Shown here piece after piece: positions 1 through 33,134 of a DNA stretch of 64,000 nt (the stretch's first letter is position 1; each line of letters begins with the position of its first letter). The stretch is from an uncultured Candidatus Saccharibacteria bacterium. GTDB lineage: Bacteria > Patescibacteriota > Minisyncoccia > Phycocordibacterales > UBA12088. The stretch covers positions 7,023 through 71,022 of the forward strand of contig CAZFRC010000001.1 of the NCBI GenBank assembly GCA_964521185.1, read 5' to 3'. The translations under genes and the position numbers were made by a program. The notes beneath the pieces are model-generated. The model saw nothing but the letters and a program-made list of their open reading frames with translations. It was not told the origin of the DNA and did not search any database.

Positions 1-1018
1 CCGAGAGCGCGGTTCGTTTGCCGTTCAAGCTGTCTCGCGATGCGGAAATGGCCGAAAGAGACGCGCTAATGGCAGAACGCGCCGTATTAGCAGAAGTGAG
101 GTAGGTTGCGATTTCAGATTCCGAGATAGCTATTGAGGGAATAGCCCGATTCAGAGCTCCAATAATGGAACTCAAGTATCGTTCGACAACGCGAAGCTCA
201 TTTTCAGTCTTGGTAAGTTCGAGATCCAGATCTGTATTTTCCGATGGAGGTACATGCGCTTCCTGTCTTTTGATGATATCGCCGATAGAAATTCTCTGAT
301 TTTGTACCGTAAATATCAATTGAGAATCGGATGTTGAAAGGAGAAAACGAGGATTGATCGTCAGTGGATCTGCAAACATGACATCAGTTTGACGAAGTAC
401 CGCGTCACTCACGGCCGCATATGCGCTCCCTAGTGTTGTTCGAGCTCCCGATTCAGCTTCAAGAACCGCGCGTTCGGCATTTTGCACGTTTAACGAGAGA
501 ATAGCGAGTTGTTCGTCGCGCGTACCTTTCTGTACTTTTTGAAGTCCCGCACGAGCCGCTTGCAGTTGTCCTTCCGCTTGGAGTACAACGGCCCGTTCGC
601 GAGAGTTTTCCATTTCGGCAATAATCGAACCTGCGGCGACAGAACTTCCTACGGTTCGATATACGCCGATAACCTCCCCAGAGTTTTCAGTCCGGAGTTC
701 GGCTTCAGATTCCGACCGAACAGTGCCGGTTAGTGGAAGTGGAGCGCTTTCGTTTGACAATGTTCCAAGTGTGGCAACCAGCACGCCTTTTCCAGGAAGG
801 GGATTGAGAGATGGTGATTCGGATCCAAACGATAACCAAATCCCCGTGCCTCCCAAAATAATTACGAGACCAGCGATAAGGATAAGGGTTTTTTTCGAAG
901 CCAACATATCAGTTTGAAAACGGAGCCGATTCTCGTTGAAACGGGAAATTGACGCGTTCATCAAAAGTTTTTGGATTTTTTGAAGATTTTTTCGAATGAA
1001 GGTGGTAAATGATTCCAT
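1..1018 (-). CDS. Efflux transporter periplasmic adaptor (membrane-fusion protein, HlyD family); partial, C-terminus lies beyond the left window edge
   Basis: Manual reverse-strand translation gives an uninterrupted reading frame starting at ATG (complement of 1016-1018): MESFTTFIRKNL... It has an N-terminal membrane anchor (LILIAGLVIILGG), a long coiled-coil (VVLQAEGQLQAARAGLQKVQKGTRDEQLAILSLNVQNAERAVLEAE) and lipoyl/beta-barrel-like segments typical of membrane-fusion proteins. It is missing from the ORF track because it has no in-window stop. The plus-strand ORFs 509-733 and 723-917 are shadows of this gene. Confidence 0.6.
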   Translation of the reverse strand, partial: MESFTTFIRKNLQKIQKLLMNASISRFNENRLRFQTDMLASKKTLILIAGLVIILGGTGIWLSFGSESPSLNPLPGKGVLVATLGTLSNESAPLPLTGTVRSESEAELRTENSGEVIGVYRTVGSSVAAGSIIAEMENSRERAVVLQAEGQLQAARAGLQKVQKGTRDEQLAILSLNVQNAERAVLEAESGARTTLGSAYAAVSDAVLRQTDVMFADPLTINPRFLLSTSDSQLIFTVQNQRISIGDIIKRQEAHVPPSENTDLDLELTKTENELRVVERYLSSIIGALNRAIPSIAISESEIATYLTSANTARSAISASLSAISASRDSLNGKRTALS

Positions 1019-1172
1019 ACTATTGTTCGCCTATTATTCGCGACTAACTTCTTAATGATAAGACACGCCTCACACCCTGGGGACTTTGCGTGTCCATGTA
1101 ATTCTGTGCACTATAGCATATTCCAGCATACAGTTGGAAAAATATGAAAGATTGCGATACTATCATACAGCC

Positions 1173-1415
1173 ATGTTCAAAGAATTTATTGCGCGAAAAT
1201 TGATGGAACGACAGCTTCGCTCGCTTCCCCCCGCTCAACGCGACGCGTTCATGCATGCGTATCAAGCCAATCCAACTCTTTTCGCAACGATTGCGAGCGA
1301 AATAGAAGCAAAAAAGAAATCGGGGAAATCCGATCTTGTAGCCGCTATGGAAGTAATGAAATCTCACCAAAAAGAGCTACAGGAAGCGTTTGCAAAATCA
1401 GGCCTTACTCGATAG
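1173..1415 (+). CDS. Small hypothetical protein (~80 aa). The listed ORF begins at TTG 1086; the first ATG is at 1173
   Basis: ORF track 1086-1415. MFKEFIARKLMERQLRSLPPAQRDAFMHAYQ... No recognisable motif. Divergent from the adaptor gene. Confidence 0.3.
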   Translation: MFKEFIARKLMERQLRSLPPAQRDAFMHAYQANPTLFATIASEIEAKKKSGKSDLVAAMEVMKSHQKELQEAFAKSGLTR

Positions 1416-1489
1416 GTTTTTCGATGCTGTCCACAGGTAGGTTCTAAAAACGAGAGACGAACAATCTCTTGATACGATATACTTTTTCC

Positions 1490-2017
1490 ATGCCGGGAAT
1501 GATTCTTTTTCTCACGCTGCTTCAGCAAATCGGTATTTCGCTTGCTATTGGCTCGTCCACTTTTGCGCTCATTTTCTATTTCAAATCAATTCGGGATGGC
1601 CGCATTGATGATTCAGAACGGTCGTTCATGCACACGGTGTATCTTGTGCTTCGGATAGGTCTTGTAACGATCGTTATTTCAGAACTACTTTCCGTATTTG
1701 CTTGGTATGATGTCGGCAGTGTTGAGCGAATCGTGAATGCCACCTTCTGGTTTAAATGGACTCTTCTTGCGATTATTGTGGGCAACGCCCTTCTTATGGA
1801 TACCCAGATGATGCCTATGTGGCTTGGGCCAGGAATCGCAGGAGGGTCGTGGTATATGTTTGTGATTGCGCACACGCTCCGCCCGCTCGAAGCCCATTAC
1901 TTCACTTGGATATTCTACTATCTGGTTTTTGTTATTCTGTTCGTTGCGTTTCTCCATTTGGTTCGAATGGTATATGTTGACCATTCGTTTTTTTCCCGTG
2001 GTGTTGGGGAATCATAA
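1490..2017 (+). CDS. Hypothetical polytopic membrane protein
   Basis: ORF track 1469-2017 begins at TTG. The first ATG is at 1490 (MPGMILFLTLL...). Several hydrophobic helices. No known motif. Confidence 0.5.
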   Translation: MPGMILFLTLLQQIGISLAIGSSTFALIFYFKSIRDGRIDDSERSFMHTVYLVLRIGLVTIVISELLSVFAWYDVGSVERIVNATFWFKWTLLAIIVGNALLMDTQMMPMWLGPGIAGGSWYMFVIAHTLRPLEAHYFTWIFYYLVFVILFVAFLHLVRMVYVDHSFFSRGVGES

Positions 2018-2056
2018 TTAATAGCAAATGTTCAGATTCTTAATCGTAATATCGGC

Positions 2057-2641
2057 ATGGAACGAAAGAAAATTTTTGTGTTAGTTGGACATCCAGATTC
2101 CGACACGTTTTCTGGTGCGCTTGCAACGTCATATGTGAAAGGCGCTGAATCGAAAGGGCATGAAGTGCGGCGAGTAAATCTTGGAGAAGTTGCGTTTGAT
2201 CCCATCCTTCATAAAGGATATAAAGTGATTCAAGAACTTGAACCCGGTCTTAAAGAAATCCAAGGACACATTCTATGGGCGGATCATTTTGTAGTGGTGT
2301 ATCCAAACTGGTGGAATACCATGCCCGCGCTTCTCAAGGGTTTCTTTGATCGCGCATGGCTTCCGGGATTTGCATTTAATTTTGACAAGGTAAATCGTAA
2401 AATCATCAAACGACTCGCAGGAAAAACGGCTCGAGTGATCATTGCGGCCGGCACTAATAGCGGCTTCATCACGTGGTGGAAATATGGCGATTATAAAAAT
2501 GAAATCCAACGAGGTATTCTCGAATTTTCCGGATTTAATCCGGTGGAAATCTCTACTTTTGGTCCCTGCGACATATCTGGAGACGCCGAAAAAAATAACT
2601 GGATTTCTGAAGCGTATGCGCTCGGTGAAAAAGGCGCGTAG
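2057..2641 (+). CDS. Flavodoxin-like fold NAD(P)H dehydrogenase (quinone) / FMN-dependent reductase family protein
   Basis: KIFVLVGHPDSDTFSGALATSY...HFVVVYPNWWNTMPALLKGFFDRAW matches the Flavodoxin_2 / NAD(P)H:quinone oxidoreductase fold (MdaB/azoreductase-like). Confidence 0.75.
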   Translation: MERKKIFVLVGHPDSDTFSGALATSYVKGAESKGHEVRRVNLGEVAFDPILHKGYKVIQELEPGLKEIQGHILWADHFVVVYPNWWNTMPALLKGFFDRAWLPGFAFNFDKVNRKIIKRLAGKTARVIIAAGTNSGFITWWKYGDYKNEIQRGILEFSGFNPVEISTFGPCDISGDAEKNNWISEAYALGEKGA

Positions 2642-2646
2642 GGCGT

Positions 2647-4317
2647 ATGCATCCGGCATTTCGGTGGGTTGATCATTGGATTGCGTCCGCTGGAGCAGCC
2701 ATCCATTCGCCATTTTCATGGCTTGTTTCTTTTACCGCAATTGTTACGGTTCGTTTTTTACTCGAATCATTTTCAAGTCCTCTTAACGACGGACATATCG
2801 GGCTTTCTATTTCTTCCGCATTCCACACATGGTTTTTCTTTTTGTGCGCGGCGCTTGGCGTCACGTTGATTTTTCATTTTTTTACGCGCGTTTCGCTCCA
2901 TCGCGCGTTTGTTATCACCGGCGTATGCCTACCTCTTATCTGGCTTGCCCCCCTCATCGACCTCTTTTTTGGCGCTTGGAGGGGAGAGGGAGTGGCAATG
3001 GCATACAACGTTCACGCAGTATGGGGACTTTTTCAAGATTTTATTACCTATTTTGGACCAGAGCTGTGGCAAGGAATTACTATTGGCATCAGGATAGAAA
3101 TTGCTTGTATTCTTATCGGTTCGACGGTACTCGGTTATCTGGTAACGCGCTCAGTAGCGCGCTCCACCTTACTCTTGTTTGCGCTGTATGCCTATATATT
3201 TTGTATCACCGCATTTCCAAGCTTTCTCATATTCGGGATAGAACCGGAAGCTTTTTTGGGAACAGATTCAGAGCTTCGCGCCGCAGTATCCAGAAACATC
3301 GTAGCTGATATTTTACCTTATCTTCCAAACTCAAGAGAAGCTTCCGAATTAGAACTTCCGAGACTGTTTAATACGGTCTTCGATCAGTATATGATTGCTG
3401 CGCTCTCTTTCTTAGCAGTGTTTCTTGGGGGATTCGCTCTATACAGAATTTCTCCGGACATATGGAAAATTCATATTTATAATTCACGGCCAGAACGCGT
3501 GGCACATTACCTGCTTCTCGTAACCTTCGGTTTCTTTGTTGCGTATTTTGCAACTACCACCCATTCCCATCTGCCGCCTTTTGAACATTTTGTTCGATTG
3601 TTGCTTGCGTGTTTCGCGATGTATTGTGCGTGGATGCATGCGGTAAGTGTAAACGACATAGCGGATGAAAAGATTGATGCCATCTCCAACCCCTATCGTC
3701 CTCTTGCAAACGGAACACTTTCACGCGCCCAAATGCTGGACGGCGGAAAATTGTTTTTTGTTTTGGCGATCGCGATTGGATATGCCGCCTCTCCTCACGC
3801 GGCTCTTTTTGTCGCCGGAGTCATTTGCGTGTATCAGGTGTATTCTGCGTCTGGAACCCGGCTGAAGTTAGTGCCAATAGTGCCATCTTTTCTTATCGGT
3901 ATTGCGTGTGTTTTTGCTTTTAGTATAGGGTTTTTTACTGGAATGCCACACGCAGAATTTGCGGACATTCCTCGCGCTCTCATCATATTAATATTTTGCG
4001 GGTATACACTTGGCGCGACAATCCGCGATCTAAAAGATTATGAAGGCGATAAGGCGGGTGGCGCGCTCACTATTCCAGTTCTTTTTGGAAAAAAGTGGGG
4101 GGCAATCATCACCGGTATCGCGTTTAGCTCATCCCTTTTACTGGCCCCTCTTCTGTTCAATTTTTTCCCCATCATGTTTCTTTTTTCGGCTCCCGTTGCT
4201 TTTTTAGGTTTCTGGTTGACCGTGCGTTCCCCTTATAAAGAGTGGCCGCTCTTCATTCTGTATCTTCTATACTTTAGTTTTTTATTTACGTTGTGGGTTT
4301 TGCAAAATATTCTATAA
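2647..4317 (+). CDS. UbiA-family aromatic/polyprenyl prenyltransferase domain fused to a ~260-aa N-terminal polytopic membrane extension
   Basis: The C-terminal half carries both UbiA Asp-rich motifs: VNDIADEKIDAISNPYRPLANGTLS (NDxxDxxxD) and RDLKDYEGDKAGGALTIPVLFG (second DxxxD). The N-terminal ~260 aa is an extra multi-helix hydrophobic domain of unknown family. There is a 5-nt gap to the upstream reductase gene. Confidence 0.7.
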   Translation: MHPAFRWVDHWIASAGAAIHSPFSWLVSFTAIVTVRFLLESFSSPLNDGHIGLSISSAFHTWFFFLCAALGVTLIFHFFTRVSLHRAFVITGVCLPLIWLAPLIDLFFGAWRGEGVAMAYNVHAVWGLFQDFITYFGPELWQGITIGIRIEIACILIGSTVLGYLVTRSVARSTLLLFALYAYIFCITAFPSFLIFGIEPEAFLGTDSELRAAVSRNIVADILPYLPNSREASELELPRLFNTVFDQYMIAALSFLAVFLGGFALYRISPDIWKIHIYNSRPERVAHYLLLVTFGFFVAYFATTTHSHLPPFEHFVRLLLACFAMYCAWMHAVSVNDIADEKIDAISNPYRPLANGTLSRAQMLDGGKLFFVLAIAIGYAASPHAALFVAGVICVYQVYSASGTRLKLVPIVPSFLIGIACVFAFSIGFFTGMPHAEFADIPRALIILIFCGYTLGATIRDLKDYEGDKAGGALTIPVLFGKKWGAIITGIAFSSSLLLAPLLFNFFPIMFLFSAPVAFLGFWLTVRSPYKEWPLFILYLLYFSFLFTLWVLQNIL

Positions 4318-4351
4318 CATTCCAACCTTCTCCATTTATTGGCAATAAACT

Positions 4352-4466
4352 ATAAAACCGAATATTAGGGCAAGCTGATAAGAGATTCTTTTCGGATTTG
4401 GTGGCATAGGGGAGGCATGAACCGATCTAGTCGGGCAAGATTGCGCAATTACTTCGGTTTTTTTAA
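4352..4466 (+). terminator. Candidate structured RNA element ending in a U-tract (possible terminator or attenuator) between the UbiA-fusion gene and ychF
   Basis: 5' arm AAAACCGAA (4352-4360) can pair with either TTTTCGGATTT (~4392) or CTTCGGTTTTTTT (4454-4466). Internal hairpins CCGATCTAGTCGG and GCAAGATTGC, and the 10-nt perfect palindrome ATTGCGCAAT. The element ends in a T7 run. Confidence 0.3.
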
Positions 4467-4532
4467 TTTATATATTTCCACTTTGGCGAGACAATACCAC
4501 AGAAATCTTCTATACTTCAGCATATTTTTAAT

Positions 4533-5639
4533 ATGTTTAGCTCGAAACTATCGATAGGCATTGTCGGACTTCCAAACGTGGGCAAATCCACGCTGTTTAA
4601 CGCGCTTACCAAAAAAGCAGTTCCGGCTGAAAATTTTCCCTTCTGCACAATAGATCCGTCCGTTGGCATTGTCCCCGTGCCGGATGTCCGACTCCAAAGA
4701 CTCTCCGACCTTTCTCGTTCGAAAAAAACAATTCCCGCGGTTATCGAATTTGTCGATATTGCGGGACTTGTAAAGGGCGCATCCGAGGGACAAGGGCTTG
4801 GCAATCAATTTCTTTCGCATATCCGTGAGGTACATGCTATTGCGGAGGTTGTTCGTATTTTCGACGATCAGAATATTTTGCATGTTGAAGGAGAGGTGAA
4901 CCCCATATCTGACATCGAAATCATCAATCTTGAATTGGTACTTTCTGATCTTGATACTGTTTCCAAACGAATGGCCAATCTTGAACGCAATGTGAAGCGA
5001 GGAGACAAGGCAGCCATTCTTGAAAACGCCGCGCTCGCCAAAATTCGACTAGGACTCGAATCAGGAAAACTTGTACGATATATCGTACAAACTGAGGAGG
5101 AACGGAATGAAATTCAAAAACTTAATTTACTAACAGCCAAACCCATTTTGTATGTTTTGAACAAGAAAGCGGGGGGACATAATATCGATGAACACAATGA
5201 CGAACGCTGGCAGAGGCTAATGGAATTTTTGAAAGACAGCGGTGCTTCCTATGTGGTGGTGGATGCTGGTGTCGAGAATGAGTTAAAAGACGTGTCGGAC
5301 GAAGAAAAAGGAATTTTTCGACAAGAATTTGGCGTGCAAGACGATGGCATTAACTCCCTTATTACGGAAGGGTACAAAATGCTCGGACTTATCACCTATT
5401 TCACCACAGGAGAAGATGAGACGCGGGCGTGGACGATAGGAAAAGGATGGACGGCTCCCGAAGCAGGCACGGCAATCCATACCGATTTTCGAGACAAATT
5501 TATTCGTGCTGAAGTTGTTGCGTCTGATAAATTATTGTCGGCGGGCAGCTATATCGCCGCCCGCGAACAAGGTCTTGTCCGGACTGAAGGAAAGGAGTAC
5601 GTCGTCAAAGACGGCGACGTGATTGAATTCAAAATTTGA
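4533..5639 (+). CDS. ychF: Ribosome-binding ATPase YchF (Obg-family GTPase fold)
   Basis: IGIVGLPNVGKSTLFNALT (G1/Walker A), DIAGLVKGASEGQGLGNQFL, C-terminal TGS domain. 368 aa. Confidence 0.9.
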   Translation: MFSSKLSIGIVGLPNVGKSTLFNALTKKAVPAENFPFCTIDPSVGIVPVPDVRLQRLSDLSRSKKTIPAVIEFVDIAGLVKGASEGQGLGNQFLSHIREVHAIAEVVRIFDDQNILHVEGEVNPISDIEIINLELVLSDLDTVSKRMANLERNVKRGDKAAILENAALAKIRLGLESGKLVRYIVQTEEERNEIQKLNLLTAKPILYVLNKKAGGHNIDEHNDERWQRLMEFLKDSGASYVVVDAGVENELKDVSDEEKGIFRQEFGVQDDGINSLITEGYKMLGLITYFTTGEDETRAWTIGKGWTAPEAGTAIHTDFRDKFIRAEVVASDKLLSAGSYIAAREQGLVRTEGKEYVVKDGDVIEFKI

Positions 5640-5699
5640 AACTCTTTACAACCTCTAGGCATATTGTAGAGTGTTTCCATTAACGGCTAATCAATTATC

Positions 5700-6662
5700 A
5701 TGAGCGACGTATCAGAGTTTAATTCTCGACCGAAACTTTCTCCTAAGGATTTTGTCCTTCATCTCGGAGCAATGGTGGCGTTGTACATTTCATCCGGCGC
5801 GCTCCTCACTGTGCTATGGAATCATATCGACGCCCTGTTCAAAGACTCTCTCGAATATTGGCAGGATCCATACGGAAGCGGTATGCGATTTGCTATTTCC
5901 ATTCTTATTATTGCGTTTCCGCTATACCTTACGCTTACGCGCATAGTAAACGTGGATATGCGACGCAATCCGGAAAAACGGACACTGCCTTTTCGTAAAT
6001 GGCTTTTGTACCTCACTCTTCTTGCGGCGGGAGCCGGCATGGCAGTTGACGGCGTGTCATTGGTGTATACGTTCCTTGAGGGAGAAATTACCACTCGCTT
6101 TGTATTGAAAATACTCTCCACGTTTGTCGTATTTGCTGCAATATTTGCGTACTATCTCTACGATCTTCGCGGCATATGGGGAATGCGCGAAAGGATGTCC
6201 AAGCTTGTCGGAGCCGGAATTAGCGTGGTGGTTGTTGCTATTCTGACTGCAAGTTTCGTAGCGGTGGGAAGCCCTCTGACACAGCGTTTGGTGCGTTTTG
6301 ATATGCAAAAAATATCAGATCTCCAGATCATTCAATCTCAAGTGGTAAGTTATTGGCAACAAACGGAGACATTGCCCAAGTCGCTGGATGATATAGCGGG
6401 ATTTTCTGCGCCAACAGATTCGCAACATGAAACGTCATATGAATATGAGCGCGTGTCGGCGTTTACGTTCAAGCTGTGCGCAACGTTCAACCTCCCCTCA
6501 GAGGAGAAACCCGTGATTGAAAAAACGACATGGTATGGCATTCCCGGTGTCGTCAATTCCGAAGTGTGGACCCATGGGGCACACTACCAATGTTTCGAGC
6601 GAACCATTGACCCTGACCAGATCAATACTTTCGAAAAGAATATTCCGATAATGGTTCGATAG
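5700..6662 (+). CDS. Hypothetical membrane protein (multiple TM helices plus C-terminal soluble region)
   Basis: ORF track. Hydrophobic helices in the first ~190 aa. No family recognised. Confidence 0.5.
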   Translation: MSDVSEFNSRPKLSPKDFVLHLGAMVALYISSGALLTVLWNHIDALFKDSLEYWQDPYGSGMRFAISILIIAFPLYLTLTRIVNVDMRRNPEKRTLPFRKWLLYLTLLAAGAGMAVDGVSLVYTFLEGEITTRFVLKILSTFVVFAAIFAYYLYDLRGIWGMRERMSKLVGAGISVVVVAILTASFVAVGSPLTQRLVRFDMQKISDLQIIQSQVVSYWQQTETLPKSLDDIAGFSAPTDSQHETSYEYERVSAFTFKLCATFNLPSEEKPVIEKTTWYGIPGVVNSEVWTHGAHYQCFERTIDPDQINTFEKNIPIMVR

Positions 6663-6670
6663 CCTTTCTT

Positions 6671-9148
6671 ATGGCTCGCTACGATCATATTCACATTGAA
6701 AAAAAGTGGCAGGAACGATGGGAACGAGACGACTCATTCCAAGCGACTGAAAATATTGAGAAAAAAAAGTTTTACGCACTTATAGAATTTCCGTATCCGT
6801 CAGGTGCGGGACTTCATACGGGGCACATCAGAAGCTATACGGCCCTTGATGCGGTTGTACGGAAACGCCGTCGTGAAAACCAGGAAGTGCTATTTCCTAT
6901 CGGATGGGACGCCTTTGGCTTGCCGACAGAAAATTATGCTATTAAAACAGGCCGCAAGCCCAAAGAGATCACCAAAGAAAATACCGACACGTTTCGACGC
7001 CAGCTCAAATCCATAGGTCTTTCTTTTGACTGGAAACGAGAAATCAACACCACCGACCCCTCGTACTATAAGTGGACCCAGTGGATTTTTTTGCAGCTGT
7101 TTAAAAAGGGTCTTGCTTATAAATCAAAGACAGAGATTAACTGGTGTCCGAAAGATAAGATTGGTCTAGCTAACGAAGAGGTTATCGATGGAAAATGCGA
7201 GCGATGTGGTACCGAAGTAGAAAAGAGAGAAAAAGAGCAATGGATGTTGGCCATCACCAAATACGCAAAACGATTATATGACGATCTTCATACCGTCGAC
7301 TATATTGAACGGGCGAAAATTCAACAGCAAAATTGGATAGGGCCTTCGGAAGGATCGCTCATTACATTTCCACTTGTGGGAATTTCTGGACAACAAGATG
7401 GCGCTCATTCGGTCCAAATATTTACCACGCGATCTGATACTATATACGGCGCTACATTCGTGGTTGTATCGCCCGAGCTTGCAAAGAAATGGATGGAGAT
7501 GGGCTGGCAGATACCGATGGTCGCGAGCGCGTATGTTAACGAAACTCTGAAAGAGCGTGCGAAAGCAGGACGCAAAGACATTGAAGAAAAAACGGGTGTC
7601 GATACTGGAATCTTTGCCATCAACCCGGGAACGAAGGAAAGAATCCCCGTTTGGATCTCCAATTATATTTTGGGAGATGTAGGGACTGGCGCCATTATGG
7701 CTGTTCCTTCACACGATGAACGCGATAATGCGTTTGCAAAGAAATTCGGGCTTCCAATTTCAAGAATGGTCGTTGTTCCTCAAAAAGGATCAGCATCAGA
7801 CGATCTTTCTCATGGAGATCTTTCAAAAATAGCTCAGTATTATCAAAACGAATATGCCGGCTCTCCATTCACTGGTCATGGCATTGTAGTAAATTCTGGA
7901 GCGTACGACGGGCTCACATCAGAAGAAGCGAAAAGAAAAATAACCGAGGACGTGGGAGGGATATTGACTACAAAATATAAACTTCGGGATTGGGTGTTTT
8001 CTCGTCAGCGCTACTGGGGAGAACCCATACCCCTCGTGTATTGCGAATCGTGCGCGGAATGGATTCCTGTTCCTGAAGACGAACTCCCGATTACGTTGCC
8101 GGAGATTTCAAAATATGAATATACCGATACCGGGGAATCGCCGCTCGCAAATATCGCAGAATGGGTGAATACTACGTGTCCAAAATGCAATGGTCCGGCG
8201 AGACGAGAGACAGACACCATGCCAAATTGGGCGGGTTCCAGTTGGTACTATCTTCGATATACCGATCCAAAAAACGATACCAGATTGGCCGACTCAAAAA
8301 AACTCTCCTACTGGACTCCTGTGGATTGGTATAACGGCGGCATGGAACACACGGTTCTACATCTTCTCTATTCTCGGTTTTGGCATAAATTCTTGTTCGA
8401 TATTGGGGTTGCTCCTACTTCAGAACCTTATACAAAACGCACGAGCCACGGCCTTATCCTTGCGGAAGGAGGAGAAAAGATGTCGAAATCGAAAGGGAAC
8501 GTGGTGAATCCGGATGATATCGTGGAACGATTCGGGGCTGACGCGCTTCGTGTGTATGAGATGTTTATGGGGCCTTTCGAACAGGCGATTGCATGGTCGA
8601 CCGACGGATTGGTGGGAACACGACGATTCCTGGAACGCGTATATGCGCTTGCTGGCACGCTCAGCGATGCCCGCCCCTCCGACGCACTTTCTCGCATAGA
8701 ACATCAGAGTATTAAAAAAATAGGGGAGGATATCGAAGCGCTTAAAATGAATACCGCTGTGTCGCAGCTTATGATTTTTCAAAATGCGATTAGCAACGAA
8801 AAGAAAACTCCCAAGAGTTCGTTCGAAACCTTTTTATTGTTGCTTGCGCCGTTTGCGCCGCATATAACTGAAGAACTGTGGGAAATGCTTGGACATACCA
8901 CATCAATCCATAAAGAACCATGGCCGACTTTTAATCCGGACATTCTTGAAATCAAAGAAGCCTCTGTATCTGTGATGGTTGACGGAAAAGTCCGAGGATC
9001 TATAGTTCTTTCAGTTGGGATAAGCAAAGAAGAGGCGTTTGGAGAGGCACTTAAATTGGAAACAGTCAAAAAGTGGGTAGATGGAAAGACCCCAAAAACT
9101 GCCGCCTATGTGCCGGGAAAGATTATTAGCTTAACCACTAATGGCTAA
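6671..9148 (+). CDS. leuS: Leucyl-tRNA synthetase
   Basis: PYPSGAGLHTGHIRSY (HIGH region), KMSKSKGN, editing domain present, 825 aa. Confidence 0.95.
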   Translation: MARYDHIHIEKKWQERWERDDSFQATENIEKKKFYALIEFPYPSGAGLHTGHIRSYTALDAVVRKRRRENQEVLFPIGWDAFGLPTENYAIKTGRKPKEITKENTDTFRRQLKSIGLSFDWKREINTTDPSYYKWTQWIFLQLFKKGLAYKSKTEINWCPKDKIGLANEEVIDGKCERCGTEVEKREKEQWMLAITKYAKRLYDDLHTVDYIERAKIQQQNWIGPSEGSLITFPLVGISGQQDGAHSVQIFTTRSDTIYGATFVVVSPELAKKWMEMGWQIPMVASAYVNETLKERAKAGRKDIEEKTGVDTGIFAINPGTKERIPVWISNYILGDVGTGAIMAVPSHDERDNAFAKKFGLPISRMVVVPQKGSASDDLSHGDLSKIAQYYQNEYAGSPFTGHGIVVNSGAYDGLTSEEAKRKITEDVGGILTTKYKLRDWVFSRQRYWGEPIPLVYCESCAEWIPVPEDELPITLPEISKYEYTDTGESPLANIAEWVNTTCPKCNGPARRETDTMPNWAGSSWYYLRYTDPKNDTRLADSKKLSYWTPVDWYNGGMEHTVLHLLYSRFWHKFLFDIGVAPTSEPYTKRTSHGLILAEGGEKMSKSKGNVVNPDDIVERFGADALRVYEMFMGPFEQAIAWSTDGLVGTRRFLERVYALAGTLSDARPSDALSRIEHQSIKKIGEDIEALKMNTAVSQLMIFQNAISNEKKTPKSSFETFLLLLAPFAPHITEELWEMLGHTTSIHKEPWPTFNPDILEIKEASVSVMVDGKVRGSIVLSVGISKEEAFGEALKLETVKKWVDGKTPKTAAYVPGKIISLTTNG

Positions 9149-9190
9149 ACAGAGCCCTAATTTTGGATCTCTTGCGCCATATTGACAGAT

Positions 9191-10264
9191 ATGATAAAAA
9201 ATGGCCTACGGACTACCCCAAATATGCCCGGTCAGAAACTTTCTTTTAAACCAAAGATAGTGAGTAGACGCCTCCTTGAGGTGCTTCCAGAGCGTGCACG
9301 GACCATCCTTGAGGGACGGTATGGTCTTGGAAATTCAGTGCAACACGAGACGCTTGAATCAATTGGCTCTGCATACGGAATCACTCGCGAACGAGTGCGT
9401 CAGATTGAAAATTATGCTCTGAATTCGATTCGCAAGTCCGAAGCATACAAAAAAGAGAAAGGAATATTCGATGAACTCGAAACCAGGATGCGTGAAATGG
9501 GCACAGTGGTGACTGAAGAGGAATTTTTGAATCGATTTGCAAAAGATGAAGAAACTCGCAATTTCATACACTTTCTATTGGTCTTAGGCGATGCATTCGG
9601 GCTCAAAAAAGAAGATGCTGATTTTAAACACCGATGGCATGTCGACGCTGACGTATCTGCCGCAATAGAAAAAGCGCTTCAAGCGCTGTATGACGGTTTG
9701 TCCGACGATGATTTGGTGCCTGAAGGCGAGTTTATTTCGCGATTCCTTGACCACGTGAAGCATCTCTCTGAAGAATATAAAAACGCGGAAATTATTGAAC
9801 GATGGCTTGCGTTATCGAAAAAAATCGGAAAAAACCCTCTAGGAGAATGGGGAAGAGCAAGTTCGCCAAACGTTCGTACTAAAGGCATTCGTGATTATGC
9901 GTACCTCATCATCAAACGACACGGGTCTCCGATGCATTTCCGTGAAGTTGCCGCGGCGATTGCCGAAACGTTTAAACGTCGTGCCCACGAAGCAACGACA
10001 CACAACGAACTTATTAAAGACCCTCGTTTCGTGTTGGTAGGTCGAGGGTTATATGCGCTTTCTGAATGGGGGTATGCAAGTGGCGTTGTAAAAGATGTTA
10101 TTACATCACTCTTGAAGAAATTCGGTCCGATGTCGCGTGACCAAATTATCGAACGAGTCAAGAAAGAACGGTATGTGAAGGACAACACTATTCTGGTGAA
10201 TCTCCAAGACTCAACCCGATTTCGCCGAACGTCAGAAGGGCTCTATTCTCTCGTTGATCTTTAG
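9191..10264 (+). CDS. Putative transcription factor: sigma-70 region-4-like HTH at the N-terminus plus two C-terminal HARE-HTH (RNAP delta-like) winged-helix domains
   Basis: N-term: TILEGRYGLGNSVQHETLESIGSAYGITRERVRQIENYALNSIRK is a region 4.2-type HTH. C-term: DYAYLIIKRHGSPMHFREVAAAIAETF...RFVLVGRGLYALSEWGY and VKDVITSLLKKFGPMSRDQIIERV...RFRRTSEGLYSLV fit the HARE-HTH pattern (G.PM.F.EI...I...F..VGRG.Y.L). The track ORF begins at TTG 9182; the first ATG is at 9191. Confidence 0.55.
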   Translation: MIKNGLRTTPNMPGQKLSFKPKIVSRRLLEVLPERARTILEGRYGLGNSVQHETLESIGSAYGITRERVRQIENYALNSIRKSEAYKKEKGIFDELETRMREMGTVVTEEEFLNRFAKDEETRNFIHFLLVLGDAFGLKKEDADFKHRWHVDADVSAAIEKALQALYDGLSDDDLVPEGEFISRFLDHVKHLSEEYKNAEIIERWLALSKKIGKNPLGEWGRASSPNVRTKGIRDYAYLIIKRHGSPMHFREVAAAIAETFKRRAHEATTHNELIKDPRFVLVGRGLYALSEWGYASGVVKDVITSLLKKFGPMSRDQIIERVKKERYVKDNTILVNLQDSTRFRRTSEGLYSLVDL

Positions 10265-10328
10265 TACAAGAGATCCCCTCAAACGCGTGGATTAACGCCA
10301 CGGGTTCAATGTACAATATACAGACGGC

Positions 10329-11636
10329 ATGATAGAGAAATTTCTCGATGGGTTTGGATTTAATGTTGCGTATGTGGCTGTTGCCGCATTCATTGTAACC
10401 ATTCTGGCTCTTATTCGTTTTGAGCCACAGCTGGCAGTGCAAATTTCTACCAATATCCTAGTCCCCTCAATTCCCATCTGGCTCCCTCCGATACTGTTGT
10501 TGATATTTTGGAAATTATGGATTCAATATATTCGATTACTGTTCGCCACTTCACAACAATACGCATTGCTTGAAATAAAGCTTCCAAAAGAAATTGCTAA
10601 ATCACCGAAAGGAATGGAATTGTTCATGGCTTCAATATGGTCAAGAAGCGGCGAATCCACTTTTTTAGATAGAAGCTGGTATGGCAAACAACGGATTTTT
10701 TATTCGTTTGAAATAGTATCTACCGGAGGGAAAATTCACATGTATATCATGTGCCGAAAAGCGCTTGTCGAAATCACCCAAGCACGATTGTACGCCCAAT
10801 ACCCGGATTTAAGCATTAGCGAAGTTCCTGATTACGCGCGCATGTTTGATTTCGATCATCGATCTTCTAAATTAATCGCTACTGAATATAAATTACGAAA
10901 AAACGACGTGTACCCCATTCGCACCTACGTTGATTACGGATTGGATAAAGATCCGAAAGAAGAATACAAAGTCGATCCACTGACTTCCGTGTTTGAATTG
11001 TTGGGCGAGGTAAAACCTAATGAAAATTTTTGGATTCAGATTATTTTTCGAGCTCGCAAGTCTGACCAACCAGCTCCTGGGTTATGGGCAAAAATAACAA
11101 GCAAGAAAATAAATCAATTAGAAGAAGACGCTCAGAAAACCATAAAAGACATTCTCGCAAAAGCAAAATCTACAGACGCGACCCAAGATTACAACAAACT
11201 TACTAAGGGTCAGCAGTTTGTCATCGAGTCGATAGAACGAGCCACCAGCAAACTTCAGTTTGAGGTAGGTATGCGCGCGCTCTATTTTGCTCCAAAAGAC
11301 ACGTTCAGATTTTCCATAGCTTCAGCATTGTTTACTCTCATGAACCCATTCAACACCAATGATCTTAATGAATTCATTCCTACCCGCTTCCATGCCGGAT
11401 TTGATTATCCATGGCAAGATTTTCGAGATTTTCGTTCAATCCGAGTAATGTATCGAGCGTTTAACTACTATCGTCTTCGTGCGTATTTCAACCCTCCTTA
11501 CGAACAGAGACCTTTTGTGCTTAATTCTGAAGAACTCGCCACAATATTTCATTTTCCCGGTGCAACGCTTCAAACGCCCACGTTGGAAAAAATCCAATCA
11601 CGTCGTTTTGGTGCGCCCGCGAATCTTCCGATGTAA
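10329..11636 (+). CDS. Hypothetical membrane-anchored protein (two N-terminal TM helices, ~350-aa soluble domain)
   Basis: ORF track. No recognisable catalytic motif. Sits between the HARE-HTH protein and mltG. Confidence 0.5.
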   Translation: MIEKFLDGFGFNVAYVAVAAFIVTILALIRFEPQLAVQISTNILVPSIPIWLPPILLLIFWKLWIQYIRLLFATSQQYALLEIKLPKEIAKSPKGMELFMASIWSRSGESTFLDRSWYGKQRIFYSFEIVSTGGKIHMYIMCRKALVEITQARLYAQYPDLSISEVPDYARMFDFDHRSSKLIATEYKLRKNDVYPIRTYVDYGLDKDPKEEYKVDPLTSVFELLGEVKPNENFWIQIIFRARKSDQPAPGLWAKITSKKINQLEEDAQKTIKDILAKAKSTDATQDYNKLTKGQQFVIESIERATSKLQFEVGMRALYFAPKDTFRFSIASALFTLMNPFNTNDLNEFIPTRFHAGFDYPWQDFRDFRSIRVMYRAFNYYRLRAYFNPPYEQRPFVLNSEELATIFHFPGATLQTPTLEKIQSRRFGAPANLPM

Positions 11637-11656
11637 TATATACATAAGAGAAATCT

Positions 11657-12709
11657 ATGGATCATTCAGACAGTACCGTATTGCCACGATCGCGTCGAAA
11701 CATTCTTACACGAAGCGCTTCAAAAGTGGAAACATACACTCTCCGGGTAGGTACTTTGCCTCCAGGGCGTCTCATTGGAACAGGCATAATTGTTGGCGCT
11801 TTATGCATGGGAATATTTACAAGCGCGTGGACCATAGCGGCGCCATACTCTTTTCCTGAAGGCGATATCGTTGAAATACCGGAGGGGGCCACGCTCGAAA
11901 CTGCAGCCACAATTCTTCAGGACCGTGGCGTGATCAGATCGAAATGGCTGCTGCGCGGGTTCGTGTCGATTGTTGGAGATTCGACGGGGGTTATTGCGGG
12001 GAATTATTTTTTTGACGAACCTCTTTCCGCTATTTCAGTTGCATGGCGTATCACGCGGGGAATTTTCGAACTTGATCCTGTTCGCGTTACCATTCCGGAA
12101 GGATCGACGTCTTATCAGATAGGAGCCATCATCCAAGAATTCATACCGCGCTTTAATACCGAGCGTTTTGTGGTATTGGCAAAAGGCCGGGAGGGATACC
12201 TTTTCCCCGACACGTATTTTTTATTGCCGAATGTTCGACCAGACGCGGTAATTCGCGTTATGGAGCGCGCATTTGAAGAAGAGATCGCCACGATTCAAGA
12301 TGAAATCGAAGATTTCGGCAAACCCCTGCACGACATTATTACGATGGCTTCTTTGATTGAACGTGAAGCGCGGAATTATGAAGACCGCCAGCTCATTTCG
12401 GGTATTTTATGGAAACGACTTGAAATCGGCATGCCTCTTCAAGTTGACGCGGTATTTGGATACATCAAAGAATCGGAAACATACAGTCCGTCGTTTAAAG
12501 ATCTTGAAATTGAATCAAAGTACAATACCTATAAATACAAAGGTCTTCCACCAGGACCAATTGCAAACCCAGGCCTTGAAGCTATTAAAGCCGCGGTTCA
12601 TCCGATAGAGAGCGATTATCTTTTCTATCTAACCGGTCGGGACGGAAAATTTTACTACGGAGAGACATTCAAAGAGCATGTTCGAAATAGGGTGAGGTAT
12701 CTCAATTAG
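11657..12709 (+). CDS. mltG: Endolytic murein transglycosylase MltG (YceG family)
   Basis: N-terminal TM, then ITMASLIEREARNYEDRQLISGILWKRLEIGMPLQVDA...YNTYKYKGLPPGPIANPG...YLFYLTGRDGKFYY, the characteristic YceG-like signature. Confidence 0.85.
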   Translation: MDHSDSTVLPRSRRNILTRSASKVETYTLRVGTLPPGRLIGTGIIVGALCMGIFTSAWTIAAPYSFPEGDIVEIPEGATLETAATILQDRGVIRSKWLLRGFVSIVGDSTGVIAGNYFFDEPLSAISVAWRITRGIFELDPVRVTIPEGSTSYQIGAIIQEFIPRFNTERFVVLAKGREGYLFPDTYFLLPNVRPDAVIRVMERAFEEEIATIQDEIEDFGKPLHDIITMASLIEREARNYEDRQLISGILWKRLEIGMPLQVDAVFGYIKESETYSPSFKDLEIESKYNTYKYKGLPPGPIANPGLEAIKAAVHPIESDYLFYLTGRDGKFYYGETFKEHVRNRVRYLN

Positions 12710-17152: not shown

Positions 17153-17227
17153 TCCGCTTTTCTTTCTATCTGCGACTGCCACAATGCATTTTGTAGAGAA
17201 AAGCGCCTCGTGATAGTGTGTTCTTCT

Positions 17228-32561: not shown

Positions 32562-33134
32562 ATGATAACTTCCGCATTCGGTATCGCATCTGGTGTCTTG
32601 ACACTCGTGGGCCTCTTAATATATGCGCGAAGCATTGTCCTTGGCTTCACCAAACCTTCTCAGGTGACTTGGAGCATTTGGACACTAAATGCGTTTCTCC
32701 TTCTCGGTAGTTATTATTTATCCGGCGCGCGCGATACGGCCTGGCTTTCGGTAGGATACGCCATCGGCTTGTGCGTTATTTCAATTCTTTCTCTGAAATA
32801 TGGCATCACCGGATGGGGCACGCTTGATAAAGTATGCCTTGCGGGAGCGCTGCTCGCTGCAGGGTTGTGGATCTGGACTGGATCCGCGTTATTGGCATTC
32901 ATACTCACACTCATCATAGATATGCTGGGCATTATTCCTACTATTTGGAAAACCTGGTTTGAACCCGGCGAAGAAGATTTAACATCTTGGACAATTCTTT
33001 TAATCGGTGGAATATCGAGTATATTTGCTATCGAAAAATGGGAATTTGTAGTTGCCTCGTATCCTCTTCAAATCACTGTTACTACACTAATTATTGTACT
33101 TTTTATCCTTATACGAAAACCCCAGCATTTATGA
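32562..33134 (+). CDS. Hypothetical polytopic membrane protein (6-7 TM)
   Basis: ORF track. Its stop TGA 33132-33134 overlaps the ATG of the next gene (ATGA). Confidence 0.5.
   Translation: MITSAFGIASGVLTLVGLLIYARSIVLGFTKPSQVTWSIWTLNAFLLLGSYYLSGARDTAWLSVGYAIGLCVISILSLKYGITGWGTLDKVCLAGALLAAGLWIWTGSALLAFILTLIIDMLGIIPTIWKTWFEPGEEDLTSWTILLIGGISSIFAIEKWEFVVASYPLQITVTTLIIVLFILIRKPQHL

What the first reader, a model, noticed from the sequence alone, without database searches (positions are those of the whole stretch)
2057..4317. NAD(P)H:quinone-reductase-like flavoprotein adjacent to a UbiA prenyltransferase carrying a ~260-aa extra N-terminal membrane domain
Both UbiA Asp-rich motifs are intact, so the C-terminal half should be an active prenyltransferase. 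The N-terminal extension of about six helices is not part of any UbiA subfamily I recognise. The gene is separated by only 5 nt from a flavodoxin-fold quinone-reductase-like gene. It follows a membrane-protein gene, which suggests a small operon for a prenylated redox or lipid carrier. The operon reading is inference. If the host is a quinone-less CPR-type organism, the substrate could be envelope-related (e.g. polyprenyl-phosphate or ether-lipid) instead.
Basis: partly seen in the sequence, partly recalled or inferred. Interest (0 to 1): 0.5.

Follow-up and report, generated by a model that had tools for sequence, protein, structure and literature searches.

The report
UbiA prenyltransferase with orphan membrane domain
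This gene encodes a membrane prenyltransferase permanently fused to a conserved six-helix membrane domain of unknown fold; the fusion is found in over a thousand protein clusters, mostly from ultra-small CPR bacteria, whereas the flavoprotein gene next to it is a neighbour only in this one lineage.

Summary
Window 2057-2641 encodes a 194-aa Flavodoxin_2 NAD(P)H:quinone-reductase-like protein. Five nt later, 2647-4317 encodes a 556-aa protein with an intact UbiA domain (aa ~279-556) and a ~278-aa, six-TM N-terminal domain.

The N-domain is not a one-off. It is fused to UbiA in 1,338 representative protein clusters, mostly from Patescibacteria/CPR. Its polar residues (R36, E40, D105, Y120, G147, Y181) are as conserved as the catalytic Asp motifs. 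It matches no Pfam or NCBIfam family and no solved structure, although its AlphaFold model is confident.

The UbiA half is nearest to DGGGP synthase, chlorophyll synthase and homogentisate phytyltransferase, but scores far below every curated cut-off. It is not MenA, UbiA or CtaB.

The operon reading fails. In the closest relatives the flavoprotein is followed directly by YchF with no UbiA gene. In 80 other family loci the fusion gene lies beside KsgA/UvrD and T4SS-like genes.

Best reading: a two-site isoprenoid-lipid enzyme, with prenyl transfer at the cytoplasmic face and an unknown head-group-handling site predicted at the outer face. The substrate is unknown. This is a new architectural variant of a known superfamily, of moderate interest.

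The parts
1469..2017 (+). 182-aa multi-pass membrane protein, no Pfam family. It belongs to the flavoprotein's conserved neighbourhood, not to the fusion-gene family.
   Evidence: 43% identical homologue directly upstream of the flavoprotein in L092. Absent from all 90 fusion-family loci.
2057..2641 (+). 194-aa Flavodoxin_2 / NAD(P)H:quinone-oxidoreductase-like flavoprotein. It is a neighbour of the fusion gene by lineage-specific rearrangement only.
   Evidence: Pfam E=9.5e-32. PDB 3lcm E=8e-20. 2,257 homologues, many at 60-69% identity. Followed directly by YchF in relatives L091-L093.
2642..2646 (+). 5-nt spacer (GGCGT) between the flavoprotein stop codon and the fusion-gene ATG. An AGGG lies 5-8 nt upstream of the ATG.
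   Evidence: Read directly from the sequence.
2647..3480 (+). N-terminal orphan domain (aa 1-278): amphipathic helix plus six TM helices (about 22-40, 58-80, 87-109, 145-165, 173-197, 246-267), with a variable loop at about 198-245 that is predicted to be extracytoplasmic.
2752..2775 (+). N-domain motif R36-x3-E40-x2-S43 at the predicted outer end of TM1 (family consensus RFxLESFSSP).
   Evidence: R36 98%, E40 98%, S43 93% conserved in 144 members.
2824..2826 (+). H60 at the predicted outer start of TM2.
   Evidence: 88% conserved.
2950..3006 (+). P102-x2-D105 at the predicted outer end of TM3, then G115 and Y120 in the TM3-TM4 loop.
   Evidence: P102 99%, D105 99%, G115 95%, Y120 100% conserved.
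3073..3099 (+). G143-x-T145-x-G147-x3-E151 (consensus GATxGIRIE) at the predicted outer start of TM4.
   Evidence: G143 95%, T145 89%, G147 100%, E151 86% conserved.
3187..3219 (+). Y181, F185 and P191 in TM5.
   Evidence: 97%, 94% and 97% conserved.
3481..4317 (+). UbiA-superfamily prenyltransferase domain (aa 279-556, nine TM helices) plus the stop codon.
   Evidence: Pfam UbiA E=6.7e-27. Foldseek AfUbiA 4tq3 TM-score 0.73. Family profile against PDB sequences: DGGGPS 6m31 E=1.9e-23.
3652..3678 (+). Asp-rich motif 1, N336-D337-x2-D340-x3-D344.
   Evidence: N336 97%, D340 99%, D344 99% conserved. Corresponds to N62/D66/D70 of MjDGGGPS (PMC9385802).
3841..3861 (+). Motif 2, Y399-x5-R405.
   Evidence: Y399 97% and S400 98% conserved. 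R405 is nearly invariant.
4027..4050 (+). Asp-rich motif 3, D461-x-K463-D464-x2-G467-D468.
   Evidence: 96-99% conserved.
4318..4532 (+). 215-nt spacer between the fusion gene and ychF. In relatives the flavoprotein-ychF gap is 37-82 nt.
   Evidence: No convincing terminator; promoter-like hits are not above shuffled expectation.
4533..5639 (+). YchF GTPase/ATPase, the gene that normally follows the flavoprotein directly.
   Evidence: NCBIfam TIGR00092 E=2.2e-129. 67% identical in L091-L093.

Best explanation
Window 2647-4317 encodes a member of a large, uncharacterised family of two-module integral membrane enzymes, found mostly in Patescibacteria/CPR.

Shown:
- The C-terminal module is a complete UbiA-fold prenyltransferase with all three catalytic motifs. 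It is nearest to the DGGGP-synthase / chlorophyll-synthase / homogentisate-phytyltransferase branch and is not a MenA, UbiA(4-HB) or heme-O synthase.
- The N-terminal module is an autonomous six-TM domain. In every case I could examine it is in the same protein as the UbiA module, or is an adjacent separate gene in one split form.
- The N-module has no detectable relative in Pfam, NCBIfam or the PDB, and carries an invariant polar cluster (R36, E40, S43, H60, D105, Y120, T145, E151, Y181).
- The adjacent flavoprotein is a lineage-specific neighbour. The fusion gene was inserted or relocated into an otherwise conserved flavoprotein-YchF junction.

Inferred:
- The UbiA site faces the cytoplasm. 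There it transfers a prenyl group from a prenyl diphosphate to a lipid-like acceptor bearing a hydroxyl or phosphate group, in a Mg2+-dependent reaction.
- The positive-inside rule puts the N-module's polar cluster in the outer leaflet. There it most likely binds or processes the polar head of the same isoprenoid lipid, by delivering a scavenged acceptor, translocating the product, or modifying its head group.
- The product is probably an envelope or membrane isoprenoid lipid, not a respiratory quinone.
For: Architecture and family:
- Homologues of 500-575 aa cover 92-98% of the query.
- There are 176 relatives in species genomes. Of the best 80, 67 are named as CPR groups.
- The N-domain profile finds 1,338 clusters at E<=1e-3, and nearly all of the 150 listed are 500-570 aa.
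- The N and C modules co-occur in the same ORF in 99 of 99 hits in the window and fetched loci.

Conservation and topology:
- N-module polar residues are 86-100% conserved in 144 members, equal to the Asp motifs.
- K+R counts per loop alternate 2.5 / 0.4 / 1.7 / 1.9 / 2.5 / 1.8 for loops of 21 / 17 / 6 / 35 / 7 / 48 residues, and the UbiA motif loops are K/R-rich.

Structure:
- The full model has pLDDT 88.3 and pTM 0.89. The N-module alone has pLDDT 87.7 and pTM 0.87.
- Only the UbiA half matches the PDB: AfUbiA TM 0.73, then DGGGPS.
- hhalign shows the N-module is not a UbiA duplicate (probability 0.6%) and not an internal repeat (0.8%).

Subfamily:
- Family profile against PDB sequences: DGGGPS 1.9e-23, chlorophyll synthase 7.5e-20, AfUbiA 1.4e-13, ApUbiA 1.3e-7, DPPR synthase 6.6e-6.
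- NCBIfam: PRK12884, ChlG, HPT and DGGGPS models hit 25 of 25 members; MenA 7 of 25 weakly; CtaB 1 of 25; UbiA 1 of 25.

Other evidence:
- Variants with C-terminal AttH/CrtC lipocalin domains (P0243) fit an isoprenoid lipid handled outside the membrane.
- Flavoprotein adjacency is incidental.
- GC, GC3 and codon usage of the fusion gene match its neighbours.
- The junction is confirmed in a second assembly.
Against: - No substrate, product or activity is known for any member.
- Similarity to DGGGPS, ChlG and HPT is far below every curated cut-off (for example 81.8 bits against 269), so the acceptor cannot be inferred.
- The outer-face placement of the N-module cluster rests on hydrophobicity and positive-inside counts, not on coordinates or experiment. 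I could not inspect the model's 3-D geometry, so the cluster might instead line a lateral path to the UbiA site.
- Neighbourhoods (KsgA, UvrD, ComM, LysM-M23, T4SS-like genes, or other housekeeping genes) give no pathway clue.
- Few parcubacterial phyla carry the MVA pathway and MEP is sparse in CPR (PMC6107057), so the source of a prenyl-diphosphate donor is unclear.
- A few loci carry non-CPR labels with different contexts, so CPR restriction is not strict.
Confidence: 0.55

Rival explanations
1. The flavoprotein and the UbiA fusion are co-transcribed and functionally coupled: the UbiA enzyme makes a prenylated redox carrier (a quinone-like molecule) that the NAD(P)H:quinone reductase-like flavoprotein reduces.
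For: Same strand, a 5-nt gap and a plausible short SD-like AGGG before the ATG. The arrangement is reproduced in an independent assembly. The flavoprotein's nearest solved relatives are quinone reductases.
Against: Relatives with 66-69% identical flavoprotein and 67% identical YchF have no UbiA gene between them. Only 1 of 80 other family loci has a flavoprotein homologue, on the opposite strand 2.3 kb away. The UbiA domain does not match MenA, UbiA or MqnP models. No quinone-biosynthesis gene occurs in the 64 kb. The flavoprotein instead travels with an RND efflux pump block.
Confidence: 0.07
2. The UbiA module is a true DGGGP-synthase orthologue, and the protein makes archaeal-type diether lipids in CPR bacteria.
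For: The best PDB sequence match is MjDGGGPS (E=1.9e-23). DGGGPS NCBIfam models hit 25 of 25 members. All three DGGGPS motifs are present. Bacterial DGGGPS homologues, including one in a Parcubacteria genome, have been reported (PMC7852524).
Against: Scores are 53-58 bits against equivalog cut-offs of 296-353 bits, and the ChlG and HPT models score equally well. No GGGPS/PcrB, G1P dehydrogenase or CarS was seen in the window or among the recurrent neighbours. Authors warn that bacterial UbiA homologues of DGGGPS probably have other functions (PMC7852524; PMC6431249). This reading does not explain the N-module.
Confidence: 0.13
3. The UbiA module works like DPPR synthase. It transfers a phosphoribosyl or other diphosphate-activated head group onto a polyprenyl phosphate such as Und-P. 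The N-module then processes or flips the polyprenyl-phospho-sugar for an extracytoplasmic envelope glycan.
For: The genome uses polyprenyl-P carriers (MraY, FtsW, MurG at 42.8-46.2 kb). This chemistry needs no prenyl-diphosphate supply, which fits the MVA/MEP-poor Parcubacteria. The family profile does detect M. tuberculosis DPPR synthase 8j8j (E=6.6e-6; Foldseek E=7.9e-4). Phosphatase-UbiA pairings and fusions are known (NCBIfam PRK08238 is hit by 4 of 25 members). The outer-face polar cluster would suit head-group chemistry.
Against: Similarity to DPPR synthase is much weaker than to DGGGPS or ChlG. No glycosyltransferase or epimerase partners are found in the conserved neighbourhoods. The N-module has no PAP2, HAD or GT-C signature.
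Confidence: 0.13
4. The N-module has no chemistry of its own. It is a structural scaffold (oligomerisation, membrane anchoring, extension of the lipid tunnel) or a regulatory or partner-binding module for the UbiA enzyme.
For: High pTM (0.89) suggests a rigid single body. There is no recognisable catalytic signature or fold relative. The two modules are obligately associated.
Against: Eight or more charged or polar residues at 86-100% conservation, clustered at one membrane face, are atypical of a scaffold. The domain folds confidently alone and exists as a separate gene in at least one contig.
Confidence: 0.12

Closest known systems
Digeranylgeranylglyceryl phosphate synthase (archaeal DGGGPS, e.g. 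M. jannaschii, PDB 6m31/7bpu)
   Same: UbiA fold with nine TM helices, an N-terminal amphipathic helix, and the motifs N/D-x3-D, Y-x5-K/R and D-x2-D-x3-D. It is the best sequence-profile match among solved structures (E=1.9e-23) and a Foldseek hit.
   Different: Scores are 5-6 fold below the equivalog cut-offs. DGGGPS is about 280 aa and has no six-TM N-terminal module. No GGGPS, G1PDH or CarS partners are seen. The hosts are mostly CPR bacteria rather than archaea.
Chlorophyll/bacteriochlorophyll synthase (ChlG/BchG) and homogentisate phytyltransferase
   Same: They match the family about as well as DGGGPS does (ChlG 9sau E=7.5e-20; ChlG and HPT models hit 25 of 25 members). They share C20 prenyl-diphosphate donors.
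   Different: All scores are far below cut-offs. No photosynthesis or tocopherol context. No N-terminal module.
AfUbiA / ApUbiA (archaeal UbiA homologues of unknown or 4-HB-type function, PDB 4tq3, 4od4)
   Same: The best structural superposition of the C-terminal half (TM-score 0.73 normalised to the target).
   Different: 17-21% identity. They are single-domain proteins.
Decaprenyl-phosphate phosphoribosyltransferase (Rv3806c, PDB 8j8j) with its partner phosphatase, and HAD-UbiA fusions (NCBIfam PRK08238)
   Same: A UbiA-fold enzyme making an envelope lipid-linked precursor, paired or fused with a second head-group-processing module. This is a conceptual precedent for 'UbiA plus accessory enzyme'.
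   Different: Much weaker sequence similarity (E=6.6e-6). In the known cases the accessory module is a PAP2 or HAD phosphatase, not this six-TM domain.
Lipocone superfamily (VanZ, YfiM, PTDSS, TelC; Burroughs, Nicastro & Aravind 2025, PMC12419801)
   Same: Membrane helical domains with a conserved His/Glu/Asp cluster, predicted to act on phosphate-linked head groups of phospholipids or polyisoprenoid lipids in the outer leaflet. One family (YfiM-1) is operonically linked to a UbiA-like prenyltransferase. The N-module has H60 (TM2), D105 (end of TM3) and E151 (TM4) on the predicted outer face.
NAD(P)H:quinone oxidoreductases of the Flavodoxin_2 family (S. mutans Smu.1420 3lcm, NQO1/NQO2, MdaB, KefF/G), for the neighbouring gene
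   Same: Pfam Flavodoxin_2 at full length (E=9.5e-32). 3lcm E=8e-20 over residues 5-180.
   Different: Below the NCBIfam equivalog cut-off (66.7 bits against 162). In relatives it sits downstream of an RND efflux pump and upstream of YchF, not next to any prenyltransferase.

Membership tests
UbiA prenyltransferase superfamily (PF01040) | Profile match above the curated gathering threshold | tested here: met
   94.8 bits against a cut-off of 34.2, E=6.7e-27, aa 297-529.
UbiA prenyltransferase superfamily (PF01040) | First Asp-rich motif N/D-D-x2-D-x3-D on the TM2-TM3 loop | tested here: met
   N336-D337-I-A-D340-E-K-I-D344. 97-99% conserved in 144 members.
UbiA prenyltransferase superfamily (PF01040) | Second Asp-rich motif D-x2-D-x3-D on the TM6-TM7 loop, and the Y-x5-K/R motif | tested here: met
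   D461-L-K-D464-Y-E-G-D468 and Y399-x5-R405. Motif definitions from PMC9385802.
UbiA prenyltransferase superfamily (PF01040) | Nine-TM UbiA fold | tested here: met
   The AF2 model has nine helices at aa 282-555. Foldseek AfUbiA 4tq3 TM-score 0.73, probability 1.00.
UbiA prenyltransferase superfamily (PF01040) | Mg2+-dependent prenyl (or phosphoribosyl) transfer activity | not testable with these tools
   Needs a biochemical assay.
DGGGP synthase (EC 2.5.1.42) | Score at or above the NCBIfam equivalog cut-off | tested here: not met
   PRK12882 58.2 bits against 296. PRK12883 53.2 against 353. PRK12872.1-1 34.2 against 278. The same holds for all 25 members.
DGGGP synthase (EC 2.5.1.42) | Genomic co-occurrence with GGGPS (PcrB), G1P dehydrogenase and CarS | tested here: inconclusive
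   None in the 64-kb window and none among the recurrent neighbours in 80 loci. Whole genomes could not be examined.
MenA / UbiA (4-HB) / MqnP quinone prenyltransferases | Match to the subfamily models and presence of a quinone pathway | tested here: not met
   No MenA, UbiA or MqnP model is hit by the window protein at E<=0.1. Across the family MenA is hit weakly by 7 of 25 members, UbiA by 1 of 25 and MqnP by 1 of 25. No quinone genes occur in the window.
Heme O synthase (CtaB/CyoE), including CtaA-CtaB fusions | Match to TIGR01473. For fusions, a COX15/CtaA N-terminal domain with paired heme-ligand histidines. | tested here: not met
   No hit for the window protein, and 1 of 25 family members. 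There is no COX15-CtaA Pfam hit on the N-module. Only one conserved His (H60) is present.
Chlorophyll synthase ChlG/BchG | Score at or above the subfamily or equivalog cut-off | tested here: not met
   59.5 bits against 313 (PRK07566). 59.6 against 212.3 (TIGR01476). 44.5 against 436 (TIGR02056).
Decaprenyl-phosphate phosphoribosyltransferase (DPPR synthase) | Closest similarity to Rv3806c-type sequences or structures | tested here: not met
   8j8j E=6.6e-6 against 1.9e-23 for DGGGPS. Foldseek rank 14.
Lipocone superfamily (for the N-module) | Four-helix cone core recoverable by sequence-profile or structure search against known members (VanZ, DUF2279, DUF2238, DUF4056, PSS, TelC, SAA, Wnt) | tested here: not met
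Lipocone superfamily (for the N-module) | Conserved His (H2), Glu (H3) and Asp (H4) lining an outer-leaflet pocket | tested here: inconclusive
   H60 (TM2), D105 (end of TM3) and E151 (TM4) are conserved and predicted to lie on the outer face. However, the identities of the acidic residues are swapped, and their geometry could not be inspected.
Flavodoxin_2 NAD(P)H:quinone oxidoreductase (neighbouring gene) | Pfam match above threshold over the full domain | tested here: met
   110.7 bits against 27, residues 4-174 of 194. 3lcm E=8e-20.
Flavodoxin_2 NAD(P)H:quinone oxidoreductase (neighbouring gene) | Conserved functional linkage with the UbiA fusion (operon membership) | tested here: not met
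   the adjacency is found only in this genome and its identical second assembly.

The most novel reading that the evidence does not exclude
The six-TM N-module is a new kind of outer-leaflet lipid head-group enzyme or translocase that is obligately coupled to a cytoplasmic-face UbiA prenyltransferase. Together they would form a mainly CPR pathway that builds or salvages isoprenoid-based envelope lipids or lipid carriers. This would be a missing piece of how ultra-small bacteria without recognisable lipid or isoprenoid biosynthesis make and maintain their membranes and cell walls.
Probability: 0.2. Interest if true: 0.8.

Novelty: new variant of a known kind. Interest (0 to 1): 0.5.

Why it matters
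CPR/Patescibacteria make up a large share of bacterial diversity, yet how they obtain membrane lipids and polyprenyl carriers is an open question. Here is a conserved membrane enzyme present in more than 1,300 protein clusters at 50% identity. Its catalytic half is recognisably a prenyltransferase. The other half is an orphan domain that folds confidently, has catalytic-grade conservation and has no structural relative. That makes it a concrete, clonable candidate for CPR isoprenoid-lipid chemistry and for a new membrane-protein fold. The analysis also corrects a tempting but wrong operon inference: the quinone-reductase-like neighbour is not a conserved partner.

Tried and rejected
1. Paralogue check. 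The other 556-aa ORF (58451-60121, minus strand) is unrelated.
2. Pfam and NCBIfam on the N-module give nothing consistent, singly and across 25 members at E<=10.
3. The PDB sequence-profile search with the N-module gives nothing.
6. The N-module is not a cryptic UbiA duplicate or an internal 3+3 repeat (hhalign).
7. Rhomboid, CPBP, PAP2, Lgt, GT-C, CtaA, GtrA, DedA and DUF368 were considered from motif memory. None is supported by Pfam or fold search.
8. Lipocone membership was read up and tested. There is no sequence or fold support, so it is kept as an analogy only.
9. Neighbourhood-based function inference led nowhere. Recurrent neighbours are KsgA, UvrD, ComM, LysM-M23 and a T4SS-like block. 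Atypical loci have DnaA, Maf, RecN-like, PurQ-like and S11 peptidase genes. There is no lipid pathway clue.
10. Mobile-element or recent-HGT origin of the insertion has no support. There are no flanking repeats of note, and GC, GC3 and codon usage are native.
11. Terminator and promoter scans around the genes were not above shuffled expectation.
12. Literature searches for UbiA in CPR, Saccharibacteria or Patescibacteria found no description of this architecture.


Full report
**Observation**

Window 2057-2641 (+) encodes 194 aa and 2647-4317 (+) encodes 556 aa, with a 5-nt spacer between them.

- The 194-aa protein is a full-length Flavodoxin_2 domain (E=9.5e-32). Its nearest solved relative is the S. 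mutans NADPH quinone oxidoreductase 3lcm (E=8e-20).
- The 556-aa protein matches Pfam UbiA only over aa 297-529 (E=6.7e-27). Nothing in Pfam or NCBIfam covers aa 1-280.
- The upstream gene 1469-2017 is a multi-pass membrane protein.
- The same gene order is found in an independent assembly (Logan SRR10095373, L096), so the junction is real.

**The extension defines a family**

- A homology search returned about 24 proteins of 500-575 aa that cover 92-98% of the query at 26-35% identity. They align end to end (A1).
- A scan of one genome per species found 176 relatives. Of the best 80 loci, 67 are named as Patescibacteria/CPR groups (Paceibacterota, 'Saccharibacteria', Moraniibacteriota, Zambryski-, Taylor-, Kaiser-, Nomura- and Magasanikbacteria), 7 are unclassified and 6 carry other phylum names.
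- Two of those 6 have the typical CPR neighbourhood and are probably mis-binned. The other four are undecided.
- A profile of the N-terminal 278 aa alone (A2), searched against 1.84 billion representative proteins, found 1,338 clusters at E<=1e-3 and 1,081 at E<=1e-10. Nearly all of the 150 listed are 500-570 aa, that is, fused to UbiA.
- In the window and about 1 Mb of fetched loci, the N-module and UbiA-module HMMs hit the same ORF in 99 of 99 cases, and neither occurs alone.
- Variants exist. P0243 (797 aa, marine) adds AttH/CrtC-type lipocalin domains, P0258 adds TPR repeats and P0025 adds about 340 aa of unknown sequence.
- On one short contig the N-module is a separate 285-aa gene, followed 24 nt later by another ORF.

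**The UbiA half**

- All three catalytic motifs defined for MjDGGGPS (PMC9385802) are present and 96-99% conserved across 144 members: N336/D340/D344, Y399-x5-R405 and D461/D464/D468.
- The AlphaFold model (pLDDT 88.3, pTM 0.89) superposes on AfUbiA (TM 0.73) and DGGGPS.
- The family profile ranks solved relatives as follows:

| Solved relative | E-value |
|---|---|
| DGGGPS | 1.9e-23 |
| Chlorophyll synthase | 7.5e-20 |
| AfUbiA | 1.4e-13 |
| ApUbiA | 1.3e-7 |
| DPPR synthase | 6.6e-6 |
| UBIAD1 | 1.1e-3 |

- Against NCBIfam, all 25 members hit PRK12884, ChlG, homogentisate phytyltransferase and DGGGPS models, but at 50-80 bits against cut-offs of 212-436 bits.
- MenA is hit weakly by 7 of 25 members, heme O synthase by 1 of 25 and UbiA by 1 of 25.
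- It is therefore an unclassified clade near the C20-donor branch, and not a quinone or heme prenyltransferase.

**The N-terminal module**

- It folds confidently on its own (pLDDT 87.7, pTM 0.87) into an amphipathic helix plus six TM helices, with a variable loop at about 198-245.
- It has no consistent Pfam match in 25 members even at E<=10 and no PDB sequence match.
- It is not a degenerate UbiA copy or an internal repeat (hhalign probabilities 0.6% and 0.8%).
- Its polar residues are as conserved as the catalytic Asp residues in 144 members: R36 98%, E40 98%, S43 93%, H60 88%, P102 99%, D105 99%, G115 95%, Y120 100%, G143 95%, T145 89%, G147 100%, E151 86%, Y181 97%, F185 94%, P191 97%.
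- Family-averaged hydrophobicity and K+R counts give an N-in, six-TM topology. The short K/R-rich loops (81-86 and 166-172) lie inside.
- By that topology all the conserved polar positions sit at the outer ends of TM1-TM5 and in the TM3-TM4 loop, while the UbiA Asp-rich loops are on the K/R-rich cytoplasmic side.
- This opposite-face arrangement is an inference from topology rules. I could not inspect coordinates.

**The flavoprotein is not a conserved partner**

- It has 2,257 homologues, many at 60-69% identity, and one is named for Paceibacterota.
- In the three nearest long contigs the order is RND pump, MFP, small ORFs, (membrane protein), Flavodoxin_2, YchF, DUF5671, LeuRS, Sigma70_r4/HARE-HTH, DUF8128, YceG. 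This is the window's order, but with YchF directly after the flavoprotein.
- tblastn confirms these relationships: 43-69% identity for the flanking genes, and no fusion gene in those loci.
- Conversely, in 80 family loci the recurrent neighbours are KsgA (53), UvrD (52), an unknown protein of about 294 aa (42), LysM-M23, ComM and a T4SS-like block.
- A flavoprotein homologue occurs once, on the opposite strand 2.3 kb away.
- The fusion gene's GC, GC3 and codon usage match its neighbours, and no flanking repeats stand out. The simplest reading is relocation or an old insertion in this lineage.

**Host and pathway context**

Pfam scans of essentially all window ORFs found ribosomal proteins, aminoacyl-tRNA synthetases, DnaK/DnaJ/GrpE, RpoA, MraY-FtsW-MurG, CorA and CPR-typical DUFs. 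They found no quinone, heme-O/A, cytochrome or polyprenyl-synthase genes. Published work reports the MVA pathway in only a few parcubacterial phyla and a sparse MEP pathway in CPR (PMC6107057), so the prenyl donor supply is itself unclear.

**Mechanism**

I commit to a two-site isoprenoid-lipid enzyme.

- The UbiA module performs Mg2+-dependent prenyl transfer at the cytoplasmic face onto a lipid-like acceptor. The intact active site and fold are shown. The substrate is unknown.
- The N-module's outer-leaflet polar cluster binds or processes the head group of the same lipid, by acceptor delivery, product translocation or head-group modification. This step is inferred, at roughly 0.3 probability.

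Precedents are the Rv3806c-plus-phosphatase pair, HAD-UbiA fusions, and the Lipocone domains predicted to act on outer-leaflet head groups, one family of which is operonic with UbiA-like genes (PMC12419801). Membership of Lipocone was tested and is not supported.

**Verdict**

This is a new architectural variant of the UbiA superfamily, with an orphan and possibly new-fold partner domain, widespread mainly in CPR. I found no description of it in the literature I could search. Interest is moderate (0.5). It is a good experimental handle on CPR envelope-lipid biology, but its function is unknown.

Noticed in passing
window 1-12709; L091, L092, L093, L096: A conserved Paceibacterota-type gene block: RND efflux pump and MFP, small ORFs, membrane protein, Flavodoxin_2, YchF, DUF5671, LeuRS, a Sigma70_r4+HARE-HTH protein, a DUF8128-like protein, YceG. 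The flavoprotein may belong functionally with the efflux pump (detoxification) rather than with the prenyltransferase.
   Followed up: partly
window 1086-1415 (+): A 109-aa ORF with no Pfam match is a real conserved gene (44% identity in L091 and L093, upstream of the flavoprotein).
   Followed up: partly
window 9182-10264 (+): A 360-aa protein combining Sigma-70 region 4 with a HARE-HTH domain. This is an unusual architecture, conserved at 62-65% identity in the relatives.
   Followed up: no
window 17210-19276 (+): A full-length Peptidase_S46 (DPP7/DPP11-type dipeptidyl peptidase, E=4e-176) in a CPR-like genome. It may be a horizontally acquired peptide-scavenging enzyme.
   Followed up: no
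window 32562-34375 (+): The arginyl-tRNA synthetase region looks odd. A 190-aa ORF overlaps a 462-aa TTG-start ORF in which only the Arg_tRNA_synt_N domain is detected. Possible frameshift, split gene or very divergent catalytic core.
   Followed up: no
window 21511-22719 (+), 54792-56366 (-), 58451-60121 (-): Large ORFs (402, 524 and 556 aa) with no Pfam match. The 556-aa one is unrelated to the fusion protein despite its identical length.
   Followed up: partly
L001-L090 (e.g. L003 8001-17632, L005 6001-13626): In most CPR genomes the fusion gene sits at the boundary between a ComM / LysM-M23 / UvrD / KsgA block and a T4SS-like block (unknown secreted proteins of about 294 aa and about 563 aa, a TrbL_3-like membrane protein, PrgI, TraC-like, VirB4-like). 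This synteny is conserved across several CPR classes.
   Followed up: partly
L094 881-3274; L095 860-3253 (protein P0243): A marine (Tara) variant of the family carries two C-terminal AttH/CrtC-type lipocalin domains. By topology these are predicted to be extracytoplasmic, which hints at an isoprenoid lipid handled outside the membrane.
   Followed up: partly
JGI 3300071325, contig of 2543 bp (protein P0158): The N-module occurs as a separate 285-aa gene, followed 24 nt later by another ORF cut by the contig end. This is a possible split form of the fusion, or a frameshift. The DNA was not retrievable.
   Followed up: partly
window 4262-4286 and 4505-4529: An imperfect 25-nt direct repeat (13-nt exact core ATCTTCTATACTT) at the 3' end of the fusion gene and immediately upstream of the ychF start. 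It is probably chance, and its position does not fit a target-site duplication.
   Followed up: partly
L040, L046, L062, L083: Four family loci are labelled Verrucomicrobiota, Gammaproteobacteria or Alphaproteobacteria (L062 has 59% GC). They have non-CPR-typical housekeeping neighbours (DnaA, Maf, RecN-like, PurQ-like, S11 peptidase). The family may not be strictly confined to CPR, or these contigs may be mis-binned.
   Followed up: partly
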